DNA of 64,000 bases from Candidatus Heimdallarchaeota archaeon (GTDB taxonomy: Archaea > Asgardarchaeota > Heimdallarchaeia > Heimdallarchaeales > Heimdallarchaeaceae), in the NCBI GenBank assembly GCA_016840095.1, contig JAEOSZ010000024.1, positions 1 to 64,000 on the forward strand, written 5' to 3'. Made by a program: the position numbers and the translations under genes. This document shows, piece after piece, positions 4,913-14,390 of the stretch (position 1 is the stretch's first letter; each line of letters begins with the position of its first letter). The notes beneath the pieces were generated by a model that had not been told where the DNA came from, did no database searches, and saw only the letters and a list, made by a program, of their open reading frames with translations.

Positions 4913-6310
4913 CTAAACCAAGTAATCAATTAAAGGATTTATGTTTACTGCAAGTACAACAGCTTTCTTAAAGAAACTAGCTACATTGCCGCTTGCCGAT
5001 GAAAGACCCTTAAGTTTACTTTTGGCTTTTTCTTTATCAAAAAGAGCTAAAGAAGTTAATTCGAGACTTAGATTTACTAGTTTCTCTAAATCGTGTACGA
5101 TTTTGGTTACAACTTCAGCTATCGAAAGACGTTTGACCGTATCAAATAGTTTTTTGAAATGTGTGCTTGAATTTTCTCCATTCACTCTACTAGCTTCAAG
5201 ATTAATATTGGTTTCAGATGTGGATATTTGACCATCTTCTAACAGTTTGTTATATAATGAGGACGACATTCCACATAGTCTTGCATGTAACACACATTTA
5301 CCATTTTTTGACATGTCTTCTTCATTTATCCAAGGATTAACAGAAGTTTGTAAATGTTGAGTAAAAATGGATAACGAGTCAATAACTAATTTGACTGTAG
5401 GTTTATCTCCCACAATATAAATTGGTTCTCCAACAATTGCTGAATATATGGCTTTTTCAAAATTCTTACTGATTGTTCTATCCAAAAATGTAGGAGAGAG
5501 ATCTTCTAAATTCAATTTTGATAATCTATTACCTGGATCATCGAGTTCAATTAGACCATTAAGAATTTCCTGCATGTTTTTATCTTTTCCGAGATTCTCT
5601 AGTTCATTATTCAGAAGATTGTGAAGTCTAAACAATACTAGATTCATACTTTGAGGGAACTTTAAAACACCGACTTTGGATACATTTCCTAAAGATTCTA
5701 CAACAGTATATGCAATGCTTTTCTCATCTTCAAGAGAGGTTAGTAACCCACCAATTTTATCTTTATATCTTTCATTTGCCTTTAGATTATCTAACATCAG
5801 AGCAATCATTGGAATATGTGATCCTGAACCTACTTTGTCTTTTATTTCCCAGCCTTTATCTGAATGAATAATTGTGAAGTAAGAAATATCTGCAGTTTTC
5901 AATGGTTGTTCTGAAATGGATAGATTCAGAAGTTGTATATCTTGAAGACACCTATCTAGGATTATTGAAGCTTCACCTTCTGTTATAGCATTAGGATCAG
6001 CTCCATCCAAAAGAGGACCTGTACATGCTTTTAATTTTTCCAACAATTGATTCAAAAATTGCTCTGTTAAATTAGATTCTTCATCTATGGTTTCAAGTAT
6101 AAGAACAAAATCATGAACTCGAATAAAAGAAACTGTTCTGTCGTGATAAGATATCGATTGTAATTCTCTGTGATGTACCTCTTTTGAAAAAGAAATTAAA
6201 GCTGTCATTAAACCAGTAGCTAGAATCTGTCTTGTGTCGTCTACAGCTTCAGGTTTTGAAGCTAGTAGTATTCCAGTTGATGTTACAAGAGATATCTTAA
6301 TGTTTAGCAT
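4913..6310 (-). CDS. Longin + DENN-like domain protein (paralogue B)
   Basis: Longin pattern TGILLAS...LATGLMTALISFSKEV...ELQSISYHDRTVSFI; AIYSAIVGEPIYIVGDKPTVKLVIDSLSIF cDENN-like segment. Confidence 0.6.
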   Translation of the reverse strand: MLNIKISLVTSTGILLASKPEAVDDTRQILATGLMTALISFSKEVHHRELQSISYHDRTVSFIRVHDFVLILETIDEESNLTEQFLNQLLEKLKACTGPLLDGADPNAITEGEASIILDRCLQDIQLLNLSISEQPLKTADISYFTIIHSDKGWEIKDKVGSGSHIPMIALMLDNLKANERYKDKIGGLLTSLEDEKSIAYTVVESLGNVSKVGVLKFPQSMNLVLFRLHNLLNNELENLGKDKNMQEILNGLIELDDPGNRLSKLNLEDLSPTFLDRTISKNFEKAIYSAIVGEPIYIVGDKPTVKLVIDSLSIFTQHLQTSVNPWINEEDMSKNGKCVLHARLCGMSSSLYNKLLEDGQISTSETNINLEASRVNGENSSTHFKKLFDTVKRLSIAEVVTKIVHDLEKLVNLSLELTSLALFDKEKAKSKLKGLSSASGNVASFFKKAVVLAVNINPLIDYLV

Positions 6311-6391: not shown

Positions 6392-7249
6392 TTATCTCCT
6401 CTTCTCTTGATTTCTCTTATCTCTGATGATATCTAGAACTTCTGGTGTAATTGTTGAATATCCCATTTCTTTTGCTTGTTCGACTATTTGAGTCATAGCT
6501 CTTTTTAGAAATACTCTGGGTATAGCTACAATTCTCTCACAAGCTTCATCTGTCCAGAATACTTCAGGATCAAGTCTATCAGCTTGATATCTTACAGTAT
6601 CTATGTCAACACCTTTTCCTTTAGGTAGAGGTTCTTTATATGGTGCTTTATGTTCAGCGAACCAGAAATATTGATTATCTCTGTAACCATAATCTATTGG
6701 CAAACTTGGAAACTTTCCGTCTCCATTGACTAAAGACTTATACCAGTTAGGTTTTATCAAAATCTTATCAATTCTTAACAAGTAATGAGATTCGTCTTCT
6801 CTTCCTTTGTATCTAAAAATATCTTCATTGTCATCCCAAGTACAGACTATAGATTGAATAGATTCACCAATAATTGGAGGAACAACACCGTTCTCCTCAC
6901 CATCTACAGGTATTAAAGTAAAGATGCTATCATCAAGTTTCTCTTCTGCTGTTTGTCCTGGAAATCCTAAACGAACGGTATTTTTTAGAATCTTTTTGTT
7001 ATAAGGTATGAAATTTAGTACAGCCTTTTTGGTTCTCTGTATATTCATTGATGTATTACTGTCAACTCGAGATATAAGCATCATAGCATGTTTATCTGCT
7101 ATTCCAAACGGAAAAACTAGTGAGTACGGACCTATGTTTACTGCTCCAGATTCAGAATAAGTTGTTACTAATACAACTGGCATTGGATAAAAGGACGAGG
7201 TTTGATAGAAATTATCTAACACTCGTATTTCTTCGAATTTGTGTTTCAT
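6392..7249 (-). CDS. Flavin reductase-like (DIM6/NTAB) protein fused to a C-terminal PCP_red-like domain
   Basis: PMPVVLVTT...NIGPYS flavin-reductase motif; C-terminal WTDEACERIVAIPRVFLKRAM...AKEMGYSTITPEVL matches the PCP_red helical domain pattern. Confidence 0.75.
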   Translation of the reverse strand: MKHKFEEIRVLDNFYQTSSFYPMPVVLVTTYSESGAVNIGPYSLVFPFGIADKHAMMLISRVDSNTSMNIQRTKKAVLNFIPYNKKILKNTVRLGFPGQTAEEKLDDSIFTLIPVDGEENGVVPPIIGESIQSIVCTWDDNEDIFRYKGREDESHYLLRIDKILIKPNWYKSLVNGDGKFPSLPIDYGYRDNQYFWFAEHKAPYKEPLPKGKGVDIDTVRYQADRLDPEVFWTDEACERIVAIPRVFLKRAMTQIVEQAKEMGYSTITPEVLDIIRDKRNQEKRR

Positions 7250-7254
7250 TATTT

Positions 7255-8118
7255 TCAGCTCTTAGCTATTTGTTGGTATTGTATCTCAAACCAAGATCTT
7301 TTTCGTATCATCTTCCTGAACCATGTTGGCATTATCCATCCTAAGTACATTAGAACATAAGCACCAGCAAAAGATAGGGCTCTTAATGCTGCAATAGTCA
7401 TCATCAAGGCAGGAATAGTTGCTAATTGTGCATCAAATGCAGATAACATTCCTCCAAGCAAATATAATATTGTTCCAAGCCCAATTGTTTGTAGTCCTCT
7501 TTTTCTTACTGGTTGATCAGATTTTCTGGATAATCTCCATGCTCTCCAACCAATTCTTCCTGTAACATAGATTGAAACAATTATCTGTACTAATTGAATA
7601 ACTAAGTAATAGGATACAGTAAATAGTTGAGGTGTAATACTAACTGCCTCTGAAAAGAACAGAGGATTAACATATAAGTCATCTAGCAACAACGAGTATA
7701 CTGGTGAAGATGCAAAAACATCGTACCCAACAAGTGCAGTTGCCATTCCAAAGAAGAACATTAAGAAAGCAAAAATGAAAATCCTAACAATCTCATTATC
7801 TTTCAAAATGTGTCTGCAAGCAAAAATATAGAGAAAGCCAAAAGCAGGAAGAAGCATCAATGGTCCTAATGCTGCAAGCAAATAAGTTAACTCATTAATT
7901 ACTGCTCCATTAAAAATGAATGATATCCTATATGCAATACTTACTGCTGAAGTCGCTGAAAAGAAGATATAGGCAAAAAGGAGCATGAAAGTTCCAATAG
8001 TTCTTTTCCTAAAGAAATTGACTAGTAAGAAAATCACCAAAGTAAAACTGAATAAGAAATTGATTATTGATGTAATCATGAGAAAATAAGTTGAAGTATC
8101 TAAAACTGGAATAGCCAC
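7255..8118 (-). CDS. Seven-transmembrane protein, receptor-like, no fused output domain
   Basis: Seven hydrophobic segments; basic loop between TM5 and TM6 (RLSRKSDQPVRKRG); C-terminal YLGWIMPTWFRK amphipathic tail. GTG start 5 nt after the GTPase stop, with GGTGA SD overlapping that stop. Confidence 0.7.
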   Translation of the reverse strand: MAIPVLDTSTYFLMITSIINFLFSFTLVIFLLVNFFRKRTIGTFMLLFAYIFFSATSAVSIAYRISFIFNGAVINELTYLLAALGPLMLLPAFGFLYIFACRHILKDNEIVRIFIFAFLMFFFGMATALVGYDVFASSPVYSLLLDDLYVNPLFFSEAVSITPQLFTVSYYLVIQLVQIIVSIYVTGRIGWRAWRLSRKSDQPVRKRGLQTIGLGTILYLLGGMLSAFDAQLATIPALMMTIAALRALSFAGAYVLMYLGWIMPTWFRKMIRKRSWFEIQYQQIAKS

Positions 8119-8123
8119 TTATT

Positions 8124-8651
8124 TCACCCCATGAACTCTTCTACAAACCATTTGAAAGCGTCAAAAATCCCTTCTCCTGTCTTTGCAGATGTTTCGAAAA
8201 CTGCCCATTTAAATGGCAAATCTAGTAAGTTGAATTCTTCAATAAACTGAGTTTTTTCAATAACATCAGTAACATCACTTTTGTTAAGCAGTACTAAGAT
8301 ATTAAGCTCGTTTCCAAGCTGTGCACTTACTGTTTGTTGAAAGACATTTTTAGCTTCTTCGAATCTCATTGCATTGGATCTATCAACTACAAATACTATT
8401 CCATCAGATTTCTCATTTATGCTATGCCACATATTTCGGAAATCTTCCTGACCAGCTAAATCAAATACATTGATTTGTAGATTAGGTAAATGCAAAGTTT
8501 CTCTGTTAACACCCATAGTAGGTGTTGTTTCTACGAATTCTCCTGTTTCCAAGTATCGTAATATTGTTGTTTTTCCAGCATCATCTAAACCACATATGGT
8601 TATATCAGCATGCTTGGATTTGCTTTTGAATAAGTTACGTAAGAATGACAT
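8124..8651 (-). CDS. Arf-related small GTPase (Asgard ArfR-like)
   Basis: G1 GLDDAGKTT, G2 TTPTMG, G3 FDLAGQ followed by FRNMW, G4 NKSD, G5 SAK; N-terminal amphipathic MSFLRNLF. Confidence 0.9.
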   Translation of the reverse strand: MSFLRNLFKSKSKHADITICGLDDAGKTTILRYLETGEFVETTPTMGVNRETLHLPNLQINVFDLAGQEDFRNMWHSINEKSDGIVFVVDRSNAMRFEEAKNVFQQTVSAQLGNELNILVLLNKSDVTDVIEKTQFIEEFNLLDLPFKWAVFETSAKTGEGIFDAFKWFVEEFMG

Positions 8652-8663
8652 CTCTTTCCCTCA

Positions 8664-9158
8664 TTAATCCCATAAGTCATCAGATAATTTTTCAATAGCA
8701 TTTCCATTTGGATCTTGACTCTGTTTTGGAAAATCAAATGTTATGGTTGAAGTCGAAGTAATTTCAATTTTGAAAGTACCTTTATTGAAGCCTTTGTATA
8801 GTTTCGGTAAAATCTCTTGAAGTGTTCCTGTTGAGAGAAGGTCTTTCTTCTCTAACTCTGTTATCACCCAAGAAAACACCTGCTTTATGGCGTTTGAGTC
8901 ATAATTGGTAGAGTCGAATACAGCTACTAAAGAGGCTAGATTATCTCTTTGCTCTGCAGAAGGAATTCTAAAGATGTAGCTAGTAAGATTCAGATTGTTG
9001 AAAGTTGTTGAAGCAAAATCCCCAGGACTTGATCCCATAGGAATGGTTTTGTAAACTAGCTGATTCATCGAATCAGCTGGTATGACATCGGGAAAAGTTT
9101 TGACTAATTCTAATCCCCTAGTGCCCATATTGATTAGACATAAACTTAACGGTTTCAT
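8664..9158 (-). CDS. Stand-alone uDENN/longin-like protein, putative regulator of the adjacent GTPase
   Basis: Likely start ATG 9158 (GGGG SD) rather than 9254. The segments GLELVKTFP and YIFRIPSAEQRDNLASLVAVFD recall NPRL2/FLCN/SMCR8 longin domains. Stop is 12 nt before the GTPase start. Confidence 0.55.
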   Translation of the reverse strand: MKPLSLCLINMGTRGLELVKTFPDVIPADSMNQLVYKTIPMGSSPGDFASTTFNNLNLTSYIFRIPSAEQRDNLASLVAVFDSTNYDSNAIKQVFSWVITELEKKDLLSTGTLQEILPKLYKGFNKGTFKIEITSTSTITFDFPKQSQDPNGNAIEKLSDDLWD

Positions 9159-9438: not shown

Positions 9439-10812
9439 TCACCCTGAAATTGTATGATTCATGAAAGTCATAGTCGGAGCATCTAGTGGATATCCTGATC
9501 TTTCTCTATCAGAACCAATTTCTTTGATTTCCATTAGAGTTTTCTTATGGTTTCCTGCAATACTTACTGCTTTCAATGGATGTGCTATCTCTCCGTTTAA
9601 GATCAGAAAAGAGTTAGTTGAAGAAACACTGAAATCCCCAGTAATTGGATTTTCGGTACCAAGACCAATGGGTGTATCTGTTACTAGTATTCCTTTCTCT
9701 AATTCTTCGATTTGCTCATCTAGGTTTTTACCTACGTTTTCGATAACCAGCTGATTCAGTCCTGAAATTGGGATGCTTTCAAAAGGAATTCCTCCAGGAG
9801 CTTGTCTCTGAGCATTACCTGTAGATTTTCCTCCTGCTGCTTGACCATACATTCTGTTAAACAAGAAAGATTTTAGAACTCCATTTTCTATCACAGTTGT
9901 TTTTCCTTTTGGTGTTCCTTCAGAATCTATTTTATGTGTACTGAAATGTTCAGGATTGACTGCATCATCAATCAGATTAAAATCTTTAATAGCTATCTGC
10001 TCATCTAATTTATCAATCCAAGGATTCCTCTTTTCTACATATGTTGTACCTGAAGTTCCTATCATAAATGGAAAGAACAGAAATGCAGCAGCAATACGAT
10101 TTTCCCAGATAGTTGGTAGTACTTCACTTCCCTCAAAAGCTTTTGAACCCAATCCAGCTATTGCTTTATCATATCCAAGTTTACCTATACTGCTAATATC
10201 GGGTATTTTTCTACCAGATTCTCCTTGACTGCCAGTTTTTCGATCTCCATCACCCATAGCAACTACATATGAGAATGCAGTATAGCCTGTAGCTAAAGTA
10301 GCAGCTAAACAACCTTCAGTAGTACCTACTGCATAACCAACAGAATTACGGTTAGCACCAACATAAGTTGATACAATTCGAGTATCCTCTCTATCAATTT
10401 GCTTAGAAATTTCATCACAATGTTCAGAAAGAGCAGTTGCATCTAGATTTAGAATTTCAGGATCAAGAATCCCTTCTTTTGAATATTCTCCACCTGTCGC
10501 AAAACCCATAAACATAGGATTTTCAGGACTCACTTTCGCCATGGTGTAAGCTTTACTTAAGGCATCTTTTATAGAATCATCTGCAAACCCAGTACAACTA
10601 GAGAAACCTAACTTTTTCCCATCTGCAACTTGTATTCCTACTCCTTGAACAACACCATCTCTGCTATCAATTTTGCCATTGTTATCAGACACATTTGTCA
10701 AAGCTTGATTATAGACATATACCTCAGCAGAAGGTATGCCAAGATCTCTAGAGAACTTAAGTGCAGAATCTGCAACTTGTAAAATTTTATCGCGTAAATC
10801 CTCAAATGACAT
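9439..10812 (-). CDS. pmbA: TldE/PmbA family protein
   Basis: DSEG, IENGVL, STGNA and NPITGDFS motifs; no HExxxH; 1-nt overlap with tldD. Confidence 0.88.
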   Translation of the reverse strand: MSFEDLRDKILQVADSALKFSRDLGIPSAEVYVYNQALTNVSDNNGKIDSRDGVVQGVGIQVADGKKLGFSSCTGFADDSIKDALSKAYTMAKVSPENPMFMGFATGGEYSKEGILDPEILNLDATALSEHCDEISKQIDREDTRIVSTYVGANRNSVGYAVGTTEGCLAATLATGYTAFSYVVAMGDGDRKTGSQGESGRKIPDISSIGKLGYDKAIAGLGSKAFEGSEVLPTIWENRIAAAFLFFPFMIGTSGTTYVEKRNPWIDKLDEQIAIKDFNLIDDAVNPEHFSTHKIDSEGTPKGKTTVIENGVLKSFLFNRMYGQAAGGKSTGNAQRQAPGGIPFESIPISGLNQLVIENVGKNLDEQIEELEKGILVTDTPIGLGTENPITGDFSVSSTNSFLILNGEIAHPLKAVSIAGNHKKTLMEIKEIGSDRERSGYPLDAPTMTFMNHTISG

Positions 10813-12230
10813 TATTGAGCACCTCCAACTTGAACTTGATCCATAATCACCTCAGGACCACCAGTTCCAACAGGAAGGGGAAATTGTCCACCTTTGCCAC
10901 AACCACCAAAATAGTTTCCACGTAGTTGAATATTCTTTGTTGTACCTTCTACATATTTTAATAATTCAAGTATGTTTCCTGAAAGTGCAGTTGTTTTGAA
11001 TGGTTTTGTCAGTTCCCCATTTTCAATTAGATATCCTCTGTTACAGTTAAACATGAAATTACCATCCATTGTGACTTGTCCTCCAGACCAACTTACAGCA
11101 TAGATACCATTGTCAACTAACTCGATTGCTTCTTCCAAAGTTAAATCTCCTTTCTCAAAATACGTATTCTTCATCCTAGGAATGGGATTGTACATGAAGT
11201 TAATTCCTACACTGTTACCAGTTGTTTCAGCATTTAGCTTATTAGCAGTCCCTCTGTCATGTAGGTAACCTTTCAAAATGCCTTTTTCAACTAATACAGT
11301 TCTAGAAGTTTTAGTTCCTTGATCGTCATAAGGGAAATACCATCCTCCATAAGGTGTTATTCCTTCATCAATTATTGTTACATGCTCACTTCCTAACTCC
11401 TCACCAACTCTATCAGCAATTGGAGACATTCCTGAAACTACAAAATCTCCTTCAGATAAGTGGCCAAAAGATTCATGAACCACCACACCTCCCATACTAG
11501 GTGAAACTAGAGTTTTCACTTTTCCAGTAGGTGCATTTACAGCATCTAAAAGTTCTTTTGTCCATTTTCCAGCATTAGCTCCAACATTCTCAGGTGTCCA
11601 TCTCTCTTTATCGAAGAACTCTAATCCCATTGATTGTCCCATACCATCTGAAGCTGTAGCTTGTTTTCCATTCTCCATTACAACAGCATTTAATCTCATA
11701 TCCACAACCATAGGAGTCCAGAAAATCTCAGAACCATCTGAGTTTACAAAATATTTCTCACCATAAAATTCACCATATTGAGCTTGGGTACTACTAGCAT
11801 CAACATTTTCTTTAACTGCGGCTACACCTCGTTTCAGTAATTCTAGTTTATCGGTAAATTCGAAATCCTTTGGATGTTTCTTAACTTGTAAAATAGCTTT
11901 ATCCTTTATAGCAGGTCTCTTATCAAATTCTAATTTCATCTTGTTTCTAGGTTCTGTTGAAACAGCGAGTTTCACTGCACCTTGAGTAGCTTTTTTTACA
12001 GCATCAACTATTAATTCAGGAGTAAAAGAAAAACCAGGAGTACCTTTGTAATAAGCCATAACTCCTATTCCTCTTCTTCTTTTTGATGAAGATTCTTTTA
12101 CGATATCATTTGTCAAGTTTATACTTGTTAACTGATAATCATCATATCTAGCATCAATGAAGACTCCATCTGTTTTCTCACCTTCTTCTACAGCTTTTTG
12201 TAGAAGATCAAAAATAAATTCTTCACTCAT
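10812..12230 (-). CDS. tldD: TldD family metalloprotease
   Basis: HESFGHLSEGD zinc motif, YDDQG, RMKNTY, CGKGGQ.PVG.GGP C-terminal motif. Confidence 0.93.
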   Translation of the reverse strand: MSEEFIFDLLQKAVEEGEKTDGVFIDARYDDYQLTSINLTNDIVKESSSKRRRGIGVMAYYKGTPGFSFTPELIVDAVKKATQGAVKLAVSTEPRNKMKLEFDKRPAIKDKAILQVKKHPKDFEFTDKLELLKRGVAAVKENVDASSTQAQYGEFYGEKYFVNSDGSEIFWTPMVVDMRLNAVVMENGKQATASDGMGQSMGLEFFDKERWTPENVGANAGKWTKELLDAVNAPTGKVKTLVSPSMGGVVVHESFGHLSEGDFVVSGMSPIADRVGEELGSEHVTIIDEGITPYGGWYFPYDDQGTKTSRTVLVEKGILKGYLHDRGTANKLNAETTGNSVGINFMYNPIPRMKNTYFEKGDLTLEEAIELVDNGIYAVSWSGGQVTMDGNFMFNCNRGYLIENGELTKPFKTTALSGNILELLKYVEGTTKNIQLRGNYFGGCGKGGQFPLPVGTGGPEVIMDQVQVGGAQ

Positions 12231-13337: not shown

Positions 13338-14390
13338 TTATTTCTCTTGCTTTAATTTCCTTAGCCATAGAAATTGATCAGATTTGCAATTTGGACATTT
13401 AGAATCTGTTTCTAGCCAAGCAATAATATGGTCTTTGTGAGTATAAACATCGCAACAAGGTGTTTGTACTACAATCTTTTTCTCAGATGGTTTTAAGTCC
13501 AAAAGGCAAACTATACAGATTGGTCTGGGAGATTTACAGCTAGTACAAATGTCTTCAGTTGTTTCAAACGGATCCCCACATTGGTAACAAACGAGTTCTT
13601 CTACTGCAACATCACCAAAGTCCTTTAACATTACGACATCATGTATTAAGTTTGAAAGTTGAAATAAACTAAGTAGTACTTCGGAACTATTGATTGTACC
13701 ATTTATGAAACGTCCATTGAATGAGATTAATTCTAAGTTTTCTTTCATCTCAACCAATAACTCATCAACCTGTTTCTTCTTCAATATTTCCTCATATAAT
13801 ATTGGGTGGTTTGAGAAAAAAGAGTAATAGTTTGAAGACTGAATTTCAGACAATATTTCACCAGAATCTTTCTTGATCATCACTTTCTTAATACTCAAAG
13901 ATATTGGATATTCAAACCTGAGAACTGCTCTTAAGATTATTTCTTCAGATGACTGTACTTCAAGAGAAACTTGATTTAAGAATGCAAATACATTTTCTTC
14001 ATTAAACCCGAAAATGACTCTAGGAAATAAATCATCAGTAATTCTGATATTAACAGCTTCAATAGTTGTAAGAATTGGGTTGAGTTTCTCTTCAATGAAC
14101 TTGATTTTCTCATTTACTAAATCATCTTTTCTTAAAGCTAATACCTTATAGATTCTAGAAGGAGAACCTCTATTTCGTCTTCGTTTAATCCACCAAAAAA
14201 GCTGTATTAAAATGTAGCTAGCAATTAAAGAAGCCAATATTAAAACTGTCAACATATAACCAATCAATTTTTGATGATCAAAATCATAAGAAGCAAAATA
14301 CAAACCAGTAATATAACCAGCAATAAGAAGAAGTAATCCAAAAGTCTTGAAAACTCCTTTCAACCCACTCCTATAGCTTGACCTGATCAT
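13338..14390 (-). CDS. Membrane-anchored zinc-ribbon + RING-finger protein (putative E3 ligase)
   Basis: Two N-terminal TM helices; CYQC..CTSC ribbon, then CIVC-x16-CC-x4-H-x2-H-x3-W-x6-CPNC. Confidence 0.75.
   Translation of the reverse strand: MIRSSYRSGLKGVFKTFGLLLLIAGYITGLYFASYDFDHQKLIGYMLTVLILASLIASYILIQLFWWIKRRRNRGSPSRIYKVLALRKDDLVNEKIKFIEEKLNPILTTIEAVNIRITDDLFPRVIFGFNEENVFAFLNQVSLEVQSSEEIILRAVLRFEYPISLSIKKVMIKKDSGEILSEIQSSNYYSFFSNHPILYEEILKKKQVDELLVEMKENLELISFNGRFINGTINSSEVLLSLFQLSNLIHDVVMLKDFGDVAVEELVCYQCGDPFETTEDICTSCKSPRPICIVCLLDLKPSEKKIVVQTPCCDVYTHKDHIIAWLETDSKCPNCKSDQFLWLRKLKQEK

What the first reader, a model, noticed from the sequence alone, without database searches (positions are those of the whole stretch)
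8664..9158. Stand-alone longin/uDENN-like protein with a candidate arginine finger
Seen: YIFRIPSAEQ-R-DNLASLVAVFD puts an Arg (R71 counting from ATG 9158) in a loop between two predicted beta strands. Established: the GAP arginines of FLCN (R164), SMCR8 (R147) and NPRL2 (R78) lie in the longin beta4-beta5 loop. Inference: a minimal GAP for the GTPase encoded 12 nt downstream, i.e. a simple form of the longin-GAP mechanism.
Basis: partly seen in the sequence, partly recalled or inferred. Interest (0 to 1): 0.82.

Follow-up and report, generated by a model that had tools for sequence, protein, structure and literature searches.

The report
NPRL2-like longin beside Arf GTPase
A 164-residue Asgard-archaeal protein is shaped like NPRL2, a eukaryotic subunit that switches GTPases off, keeps an arginine at the matching catalytic spot, and is co-encoded with an Arf-type GTPase and a membrane protein, so it is a testable but unproven candidate off-switch for archaeal Arf GTPases.

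Summary
The ORF 8664-9158(-) encodes a 164-aa protein. R71 lies in the loop between strands 56-65 and 73-81 of a confident longin-fold model. An Arf-family GTPase gene starts 12 nt after the stop codon.

The closest solved structure is the N-terminal longin region of NPRL2 (Z 16.5, rmsd 2.7 Å, 144 residues), clearly above FLCN, SMCR8/C9orf72, DENN and adaptor longins. A non-significant profile alignment that is collinear with the structural match pairs R71 with NPRL2 R78.

R71 is invariant in 16 close homologues. It is present in 24/24 longin-ArfR-7TM cassettes, 8/8 longin-7TM pairs and 17/17 homologues from another Asgard class. It is lost only in four paralogues that have neither neighbour.

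Longin and ArfR diverge together (Mantel r 0.90).

GAP activity is not shown. A single-chain read-through AlphaFold model did not dock the two proteins (pTM 0.45). The arginine also persists where no GTPase gene is adjacent. This protein has GL where the published GP motif sits.

NPRL2-like longins, and Asgard longins carrying an arginine finger, are already published. What the held papers lack is the operon pairing with ArfR.

This scan had already found the same cassette in other genomes.

The parts
8664..9158 (-). Gene for the 164-aa stand-alone NPRL2-like longin protein (P0001), stop codon included
   Evidence: ORF and translation. AF2 topology is beta-beta-alpha-beta-beta-beta-alpha-alpha plus a beta-hairpin. 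NPRL2 is the top structural match.
8946..8948 (-). Codon AGA for R71, the candidate arginine finger
   Evidence: sequence. (conservation); the hhalign path pairs R71 with NPRL2 R78, but the score is not significant.
8943..8963 (-). Beta4-beta5 loop, residues 66-72 (PSAEQRD)
   Evidence: strands 56-65 and 73-81, with block pLDDT about 80.
9111..9116 (-). G15-L16 at the position of the 'GP' motif of eukaryotic GAP longins (NPRL2 G20-P21)
   Evidence: alignment path; position 16 is P in 22/54 and L in 18/54 family representatives.
8652..8663 (-). 12-nt intergenic spacer with a GAGGG ribosome-binding-like run; the two genes are in the same frame
   Evidence: the distance including the stop codon is 14-36 nt in 24 of 25 related cassettes.
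8124..8651 (-). Arf-family small GTPase (ArfR), 175 aa, with an N-terminal amphipathic MSFLRNLF segment, GLDDAGKT, DLAGQ (catalytic Gln present), NKSD and SAK
   Evidence: Pfam Arf, E 6e-42. (alignment of 24 ArfR partners).
7255..8118 (-). Polytopic (about 7-TM) membrane protein, the third gene of the cassette, starting 5 nt after the ArfR stop
   Evidence: it follows ArfR in every cassette found (25 unique), and follows the longin directly in 8 pairs.

Best explanation
P0001 is a stand-alone longin-domain protein of the NPRL2 type. It is made from one operon together with an Arf-family GTPase (ArfR) and a polytopic membrane protein. The most likely mechanism is as follows. The longin, probably as a dimer as in other longin platforms, binds GTP-bound ArfR at the membrane. 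It inserts R71 from its beta4-beta5 loop into the nucleotide pocket next to the ArfR catalytic Gln (DLAGQ). This speeds up GTP hydrolysis and switches ArfR off. The 7-TM protein would be the membrane anchor, or the input that controls this step. Shown here: the fold, the position and conservation of the arginine, the conserved gene linkage, and the co-divergence. Inferred: physical binding, dimerisation, the arginine-finger chemistry, and the role of the membrane protein.
For: Fold: the AF2 model (pLDDT 78, pTM 0.74) has longin topology.

Structural matches: the top hits in three searches are NPRL2 chains. Foldseek gives E 2e-7 and TM 0.73. VIA gives Z 16.5, rmsd 2.7 Å, 144 aligned residues, model 1-145 against chain 5-161. 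The Foldseek-independent search gives Z 15.2, then 13.9 for SEA-complex chain 8adl_S, which I take to be yeast Npr2; its identity was not checked. These stand above FLCN (10.5-11), C9orf72/SMCR8 entries (9.3-9.4), DENN proteins (9-10.5), adaptor sigma subunits (about 9) and Roadblock (6.5-6.8). One search identifies those chains as NPRL2 and places R78 in KKYSRNALLF.

Arginine position: a profile-profile path collinear with the structural range pairs G15 with G20, P23 with P28 and R71 with R78 (the score is not significant).

Conservation: R71 is invariant in 16 homologues and present in 44/54 representatives at 50% identity. It is present in 24/24 triads, 8/8 dyads and 17/17 homologues of another class. 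It is lost only in 4 paralogues with neither neighbour.

Linkage: 25 unique longin-ArfR-7TM cassettes, with spacing of 14-36 nt counting the stop codon in 24 of them, and up to six cassettes in one genome.

Co-divergence: longin and ArfR distances correlate with Mantel r 0.90, 0/5000 permutations.

Specificity: only 1 of at least 31 Arf-model GTPase genes in this genome lies beside this family.

Literature: the arginine finger lies between beta4 and beta5 of the longin in DENN GAPs (10.64898/2026.01.05.697756). SMCR8 Arg147 points at BeF3 in ARF1 (PMC8213707). Asgard longins with an arginine finger are proposed as possible GAPs whose client is unknown (PMC12290439).

A language-model neighbour cluster carries Pfam NPR2 in 19% of its members (a lead only).
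Against: There is no biochemical or docking evidence.

The in-frame read-through fusion of the two genes was folded with 10 paired and 29 unpaired rows. It gave pTM 0.45, a linker below pLDDT 50 and switch regions near 55, so there was no confident complex.

R71 is just as conserved where no GTPase gene is adjacent. That covers 8 longin-7TM dyads and 17 homologues of another class; 15 of the latter were examined downstream and all are followed by two polytopic membrane proteins of about 215 aa. The arginine therefore tracks the membrane partner at least as well as it tracks ArfR.

Eukaryotic longin GAPs need two longin domains plus further domains (PMC8213707). No second longin is encoded in the cassette.

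The GP motif proposed to mark GAP longins is G-L in this protein.

No sequence method reaches significance against NPRL2 or Pfam NPR2.
Confidence: 0.45

Rival explanations
1. Adaptor or effector rather than enzyme. The longin is a platform that ties the polytopic membrane protein to ArfR, as Ragulator/LAMTOR or the SRX domain of the SRP receptor alpha subunit do for their GTPases. Alternatively it regulates the membrane protein directly. On this reading R71 is part of a protein-protein or lipid-binding surface, not a catalytic finger.
For: The membrane protein is the more constant neighbour. There are 8 longin-7TM dyads without ArfR. Fifteen loci of another class have the longin followed within 15 nt by two paralogous membrane proteins and no GTPase. 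R71 is kept in all of these. The fusion model shows no confident longin-ArfR docking. The SRX-SRbeta complex appears among weaker Foldseek matches (1nrj_A).
Against: The arginine sits at the position of NPRL2 R78 in the alignment path. NPRL2, a GAP subunit, is the best structural match by 2-6 Z units over non-GAP longins. Longin and ArfR co-diverge tightly. A trans-encoded GTPase could serve the dyads, since these genomes encode dozens.
Confidence: 0.3
2. Exchange factor. The longin, alone or with the 7-TM protein, acts as a GEF that loads ArfR with GTP, as most longin-based regulators do (TRAPP, Mon1-Ccz1, DENN).
For: Most longin and DENN regulators are GEFs (PMC10933270 introduction; 10.64898/2026.01.05.697756). 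Mon1-Ccz1, TRAPP and DENND1 chains are among the matches at Z 7-10. A receptor-like membrane partner would fit a receptor-GEF logic.
Against: The GEF longins score well below NPRL2, the SEA-complex chain 8adl_S (taken to be Npr2) and FLCN. The invariant loop arginine is the hallmark of the GAP subgroup (PMC12290439). No GEF-type wedge or glutamate-finger feature was identified.
Confidence: 0.1
3. A catalytically inactive structural relative. The protein is a longin-fold subunit with a role unrelated to GTPase cycling, and the gene order reflects only co-expression of membrane-associated proteins.
For: No sequence-level family assignment was possible. A shared fold does not show function.
Against: The three-gene order is kept across 40-86% identity, and across repeated duplications as a block, while the flanking genes change. 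Co-divergence is strong. The arginine is lost only in paralogues that left the cassette.
Confidence: 0.1

Closest known systems
NPRL2 (GATOR1) / Npr2 (SEACIT), the Arg78-bearing longin GAP subunit for RagA/Gtr1
   Same: It is the best structural match over the whole protein, covering the longin core plus the following beta-hairpin (Z 15-16.5). The conserved Arg is in the beta4-beta5 loop and pairs with R78 in the alignment path. G15 and P23 pair with NPRL2 G20 and P28.
   Different: P0001 has 164 aa and no NPRL2 C-terminal domain. No NPRL3 or DEPDC5 partner is in the cassette. The neighbouring GTPase is Arf-type, not Rag-type (Pfam Arf 6e-42 against Gtr1_RagA 1e-8). There is no significant sequence similarity and no Pfam NPR2 hit. 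It has L where NPRL2 has P21.
C9orf72-SMCR8 (CSW) complex, a longin-DENN GAP for Arf1/5/6 with SMCR8 Arg147
   Same: It is a longin-domain arginine-finger GAP acting on Arf-family GTPases (PMC8213707). It is recruited to membranes through a 7-helix PQ-loop transporter, PQLC2 (10.1101/2020.04.15.042515), which parallels the longin-ArfR-7TM gene set.
   Different: The structural match is weaker (Z about 9.4). CSW is a heterodimer of longin-DENN proteins plus WDR41. P0001 has no DENN part.
Asgard 'NPRL2-like longin' and 'FLCN/SMCR8-type longin' proteins already published (Liu et al., bioRxiv 10.1101/2020.10.19.343400; PMC12290439)
   Same: Same phylum, same fold class, and the same idea of a conserved arginine finger (plus GP motif) hinting at GAP activity. 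Part of this family carries G-P or N-P at the motif position.
   Different: Those papers name no client GTPase. The papers I read describe no longin-ArfR-7TM operon. I could not check whether P0001's family is among their sequences, because the supplements are not held.
MglB (Roadblock) - MglA GAP pair of bacteria
   Same: A small stand-alone platform protein is co-encoded with its small GTPase and acts as its GAP.
   Different: MglB has the Roadblock topology and supplies no arginine finger. Roadblock chains score only Z 6.5-6.8 against this model. The P0001 topology is longin: there is no N-terminal helix and there are two C-terminal helices.

Membership tests
Longin-domain fold | beta-beta-alpha-beta-beta-beta-alpha-alpha topology | tested here: met
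   AF2 model elements: E5-11, E16-22, H28-38, E48-53, E56-65, E73-81, H88-104, H110-126. All 23 wide-search chains with Z of 8 or more, bar one unnamed mouse protein (2gnx_A, Z 8.0), come from longin-containing proteins.
Longin-domain GAPs (NPRL2 / FLCN / SMCR8 class) | Conserved arginine in the beta4-beta5 loop of the longin domain | tested here: met
   R71 lies in loop 66-72. It is invariant in 16 homologues and present in 44/54 representatives and 49/50 loci with a conserved neighbour or belonging to the other class.
Longin-domain GAPs (NPRL2 / FLCN / SMCR8 class) | The arginine superposes on the catalytic Arg (NPRL2 R78) in 3D | tested here: inconclusive
   Only alignment ranges are returned (model 1-145 against chain 5-161); no coordinates are available. 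The hhalign path pairs R71 with R78 but at E 0.15. R78 was verified in the PDB sequence.
Longin-domain GAPs (NPRL2 / FLCN / SMCR8 class) | GP motif before strand beta2 (PMC12290439) | tested here: not met
   P0001 has G15-L16. All 24 triad longins have a hydrophobic residue (L, once I), not P, at position 16. In the wider family P occupies this position in 22/54.
Longin-domain GAPs (NPRL2 / FLCN / SMCR8 class) | Second longin domain forming the GTPase-binding bowl (hetero- or homodimer) | not testable with these tools
   No multimer prediction is available. No second longin gene lies in the cassette. Two paralogues exist elsewhere in the genome.
Longin-domain GAPs (NPRL2 / FLCN / SMCR8 class) | Arg-dependent stimulation of GTP hydrolysis | not testable with these tools
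   This needs a biochemical assay. The only proxy, the read-through fusion fold, gave pTM 0.45.
Pfam NPR2 (PF06218) | Match to the family profile above threshold | tested here: not met
   No hit at E up to 1 for P0001 or any of the 54 family representatives. An Atlas neighbour cluster has NPR2 on 19% of its members (a lead only).
DENN domain proteins (uDENN-cDENN-dDENN) | cDENN and dDENN modules after the longin/uDENN | tested here: not met
   The protein ends at residue 164. After the longin there is only a beta-hairpin and a low-confidence helix.
Roadblock/LC7/MglB | alpha-beta-beta-alpha-beta-beta-beta topology with an N-terminal helix | tested here: not met
   The model starts with two strands and ends with two helices. 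Roadblock chains reach only Z 6.5-6.8.

The most novel reading that the evidence does not exclude
The Arg-bearing stand-alone longin is a self-sufficient (homodimeric) ancestral form of the eukaryotic longin GAPs. The longin-ArfR-7TM cassette would then be a prokaryotic forerunner of the membrane-protein-coupled GTPase switches of the eukaryotic lysosome. The comparisons, from my own knowledge and from an earlier scan note, are a 7-helix transporter or receptor with a longin GAP and a small GTPase, as in PQLC2-C9orf72/SMCR8-Arf or LYCHOS/GPR155-GATOR1-Rag. On this reading the membrane protein senses a ligand and gates R71-dependent hydrolysis on ArfR.
Probability: 0.15. Interest if true: 0.85.

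Novelty: new variant of a known kind. Interest (0 to 1): 0.6.

Why it matters
Arf-family GTPases of Asgard archaea have been described and shown to bind membranes, but no native GAP or GEF is known. One study searched by structure and found none that fits (PMC11914678). Another noted that in a cultured Lokiarchaeon GTPase genes are generally not in operons with longin or Roadblock genes, which makes regulators hard to assign (PMC10933270). A third asked openly whether ArfR or Rag GTPases are the clients of Asgard longins that carry an arginine finger (PMC12290439).

A conserved, co-diverging operon pairs one specific ArfR with one specific NPRL2-like longin of 164 residues. That turns the question into a simple bench test with two small soluble proteins and one point mutant.

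If the test is positive, the longin arginine-finger GAP mechanism would predate eukaryotes in a single-domain form.

Tried and rejected
1. Pfam scans of P0001 and of 54 family representatives gave no credible family, only noise.

2. A profile search of PDB sequences hit only designed helical repeats, which I take as spurious matches to the two amphipathic helices.

3. hhalign of the family profile against NPRL2 residues 9-88, and against a 10-sequence vertebrate NPRL2 alignment, was not significant (E 0.11 and 0.15). The NPRL2 set returned was almost only vertebrate, so that profile is shallow. The path is reported only as consistent with the structure.

4. The two genes are in frame, so I read through the stop codons as Gly and folded the two-gene fusion with a block alignment (A3). 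The result was pTM 0.45 with no confident docking. The tool returns no coordinates, so R71-to-P-loop distances could not be measured.

I surveyed context with the search for related loci, the genome search and the fetch from genomes instead.

The close alignment A1 worked.

7. I tested whether the membrane proteins downstream of the other-class homologues are relatives of the 7-TM protein. hhalign found no significant similarity (E 0.026 and 0.16), though the two are paralogues of each other (Prob 90%).

8. I rejected a Roadblock/MglB identity (topology and low Z) and a DENN identity (no cDENN).

9. The switch-I-proximal Arg of ArfR (PTMGVNR) aligns, from my memory of the Arf1 sequence, with Arf1 V53 in the interswitch strand. 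I did not treat it as an intrinsic finger.

Full report
**The observation**

The minus-strand ORF 8664-9158 translates to a 164-aa protein, P0001, that contains SYIFRIPSAEQRDNLASLVAVFDS. The arginine is residue 71 counted from the ATG at 9158. A longer reading from TTG 9254 is possible. All homologues begin MKP..., so ATG 9158 is the real start.

The stop TAA ends at 8664 and the next gene starts at ATG 8651. Twelve nucleotides lie between them and include a GAGGG run. The downstream gene matches Pfam Arf at E 6e-42. It has GLDDAGKT, DLAGQ, NKSD and SAK, and a basic amphipathic N-terminus. A polytopic membrane protein follows 5 nt later (7255-8118), and then a flavin-reductase-like gene.

**Fold**

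P0001 has no Pfam family. Its sequence relatives are only hypothetical proteins of Heimdall-group and other Asgard archaea: 24 clusters at 90% identity and 71 representatives at 50% identity.

An AlphaFold2 model built on 16 homologues (pLDDT 78, pTM 0.74) has the longin order of elements: two strands, a helix, three strands and two helices. After that come a short beta-hairpin and a low-confidence tail. R71 lies in the loop between strands 56-65 and 73-81.

Three structure searches agree that NPRL2 is the closest solved chain:
- Foldseek gives E 2e-7 and TM 0.73.
- VIA re-alignment gives Z 16.5, rmsd 2.7 Å and 144 aligned residues, with model 1-145 on chain residues 5-161.
- The Foldseek-independent scan of 48,161 representative chains gives NPRL2 at Z 15.2, then a SEA-complex chain (8adl_S) at 13.9, which I take to be yeast Npr2 (identity not checked).
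- Below those come a Lokiarchaeal Roadblock-Longin longin domain at 12.5, FLCN at 10.5, DENND10 at 10.5, Lst4 at 9.5, C9orf72/SMCR8 entries at about 9.4, adaptor small and medium subunits at about 9, Mon1-Ccz1 and TRAPP at 7-8, and Roadblock at 6.5-6.8.

One search confirms that these chains are NPRL2 and that R78 sits in KKYSRNALLF. The protein is therefore a longin. Within the longins it is specifically NPRL2-like, including the extra hairpin after the core.

**Is R71 the equivalent of the catalytic arginine?**

The tools return no coordinates, so I could not superpose residues.

Indirect evidence supports the equivalence. The loop is the beta4-beta5 loop, which is where the predicted arginine fingers of the DENN-type GAPs lie (10.64898/2026.01.05.697756). 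A structure-based alignment has shown that NPRL2, FLCN and SMCR8 share one conserved finger position (10.1101/2020.04.15.042515).

A profile-profile alignment of the family against a vertebrate NPRL2 alignment runs collinearly over 132 columns (P0001 11-143 on NPRL2 16-159). That is the same range as the structural match. It pairs G15 with G20, P23 with P28 and R71 with R78. Its score is not significant (E 0.15), so it counts only as consistent.

The published GP motif (PMC12290439) corresponds to G15-L16 in this protein. The glycine is kept and the proline is not. In the wider family position 16 is P in 22 of 54 representatives, and 21 of those also carry the arginine.

**Conservation and context**

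R71 is one of 31 invariant columns among 16 homologues down to 41% identity, whereas R64 varies. Among 54 representatives at 50% identity it is R in 44.

I collected 65 loci from species-representative genomes and classified them by tblastn and HMM:
- **Triads.** There are 25 unique longin-ArfR-7TM cassettes, always in this order on one strand. The distance between the longin's last codon and the ArfR start (stop codon included) is 14-36 nt in 24 of them and 72 nt in one. One genome holds up to six cassettes. The flanking genes are not conserved beyond the genus.
- **Dyads.** In 8 loci the membrane protein directly follows the longin, with no ArfR.
- **Another class.** 17 loci carry homologues at 25-33% identity with N-P at the GP position. 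Fifteen of these were examined downstream. In all fifteen the longin is followed within 15 nt by a polytopic membrane protein of about 215 aa, and in fourteen by a second one. The two are paralogues of each other and are not detectably related to the 7-TM protein.

The arginine column is R in 24/24 triads, 8/8 dyads and 17/17 loci of the other class. It is E, E, K or K only in four paralogues that have neither neighbour.

Pairwise distances of longin and ArfR across 24 cassettes, including paralogous cassettes within one genome, correlate with Mantel r 0.90 (0 of 5000 permutations). The cassette therefore duplicates and diverges as a unit. Related sequences inflate such a test, so I take it as descriptive.

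This genome has at least 31 genes matching the Arf model. Only this one lies beside a member of the family.

**Attempted test of binding**

The two genes are in the same frame. I read the two stop codons as Gly and folded the 344-residue read-through as one chain, using 10 such paired rows and 29 unpaired rows (A3). Both domains folded, but pTM was 0.45. The linker was below pLDDT 50 and the switch regions were near 55. That gives no confident docking.

This is weak negative evidence for three reasons. The model is a monomer network with a shallow paired alignment. No nucleotide is present. The known longin GAPs cup the GTPase between two longin domains (PMC8213707), which a 1:1 fusion cannot reproduce.

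**Interpretation**

The best-supported reading is that P0001 is the NPRL2-type regulatory partner of the co-encoded ArfR, and most likely its GAP, with R71 as the finger. I put this at 0.45.

The main rival is an adaptor or effector role centred on the membrane protein, at 0.3. It rests on the arginine being equally conserved where only membrane proteins are adjacent, and on the failed docking.

A GEF role (0.1) is less likely, because the GEF longins are much weaker structural matches and the loop arginine marks the GAP subgroup.

The loss of the arginine only in paralogues that left the cassette argues that the residue is functionally tied to the cassette. It does not say to which partner.

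**Relation to what is known**

NPRL2-like longin domains are reported as abundant in Asgard archaea (10.1101/2020.10.19.343400). Heimdall-group longins with a GP motif and an arginine finger have been described, with the explicit open question of whether ArfR or Rag GTPases are their clients (PMC12290439).

Two papers on Asgard Arf GTPases report no gene-neighbourhood analysis and no native GAP. One of them states that its structure-based candidates lack the Arf-binding regions (PMC11914678). Another notes that GTPase genes of a cultured Lokiarchaeon are generally not in operons with longin or Roadblock genes (PMC10933270).

I found no paper in the held library that describes the longin-ArfR-7TM cassette. 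I could not check whether P0001's family is among the published sequence sets.

Earlier notes of this scan describe the same cassette in this genome and in several others, with the same NPRL2-like assignment. My analysis reached that independently. It adds the arginine-by-context table, the loci of the other class, and the negative fusion fold.

**Verdict**

The GAP mechanism is plausible and directly testable, but not shown.

This is a stand-alone, operon-paired variant of a known kind, the longin arginine-finger GAPs and their published Asgard relatives. It is of moderate to high interest because it names a matched pair of regulator and GTPase.

Noticed in passing
L029:208-1498 (-), and the equivalent stretches of L030-L045: In another Asgard class, the Arg-bearing longin homologue (N-P at the GP position) is followed within 15 nt by a polytopic membrane protein of about 215 aa in 15 of 15 loci examined, and by a second one in 14. 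The two are paralogues of each other (hhalign Prob 90%) and show no detectable similarity to the Heimdall-type 7-TM protein. No GTPase gene is adjacent, except for an ArfR-like gene about 500 nt upstream in 2 loci.
   Followed up: partly
window 4913-6310 (-): A 465-aa protein has a weak Pfam hit to the first longin domain of INTU/CCZ1/HPS4 (E 1e-3). In same-genus loci a second paralogous copy follows it. The pair lies downstream of the cassette only in close relatives.
   Followed up: no
window 9439-12230 (-): Two adjacent ORFs of 457 and 472 aa lie upstream of the cassette, separated from it by a 280-nt gap. I labelled them PmbA/TldD-like from their look only; no family search was run on them. 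Same-genus loci carry further tandem copies, and more distant loci lack this neighbour.
   Followed up: no
window 13338-14390 (-): A 350-aa protein with hydrophobic N-terminal segments and a C-terminal RING-finger match (zf-RING_2, E 7e-6, just under the Pfam cut-off).
   Followed up: no
G000 (own genome): C36:43855-44271 (L015) and C74:888-1265 (L016): Two distant paralogues of P0001 lie outside any cassette. L015 keeps the Arg and has a true G-P motif. L016 has Lys at the Arg position. Their neighbours are an amidohydrolase, a beta-helix protein and an alpha/beta hydrolase.
   Followed up: partly
L061:1937-2467 (-) and L026:2021-2554 (+): Two cassette ArfR genes look degraded. In L061 the P-loop reads AVKT and the switch II Gln is missing, while its longin keeps the Arg. 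In L026 the frame contains one in-frame stop.
   Followed up: no
G000, whole genome: At least 31 genes match the Pfam Arf model at E 1e-10 or better, nine of them above 90 bits. Several lie in open frames of 310-420 aa, which suggests fusions with other domains.
   Followed up: no
window 6392-7249 (-): The fourth gene in the co-oriented run starts 5 nt after the 7-TM gene. It has sub-threshold matches to Flavin_Reduct plus a C-terminal PCP_red domain. It is kept in four of the five same-genus loci (only its C-terminal 58 residues match in the fifth) and is absent from more distant cassettes.
   Followed up: no
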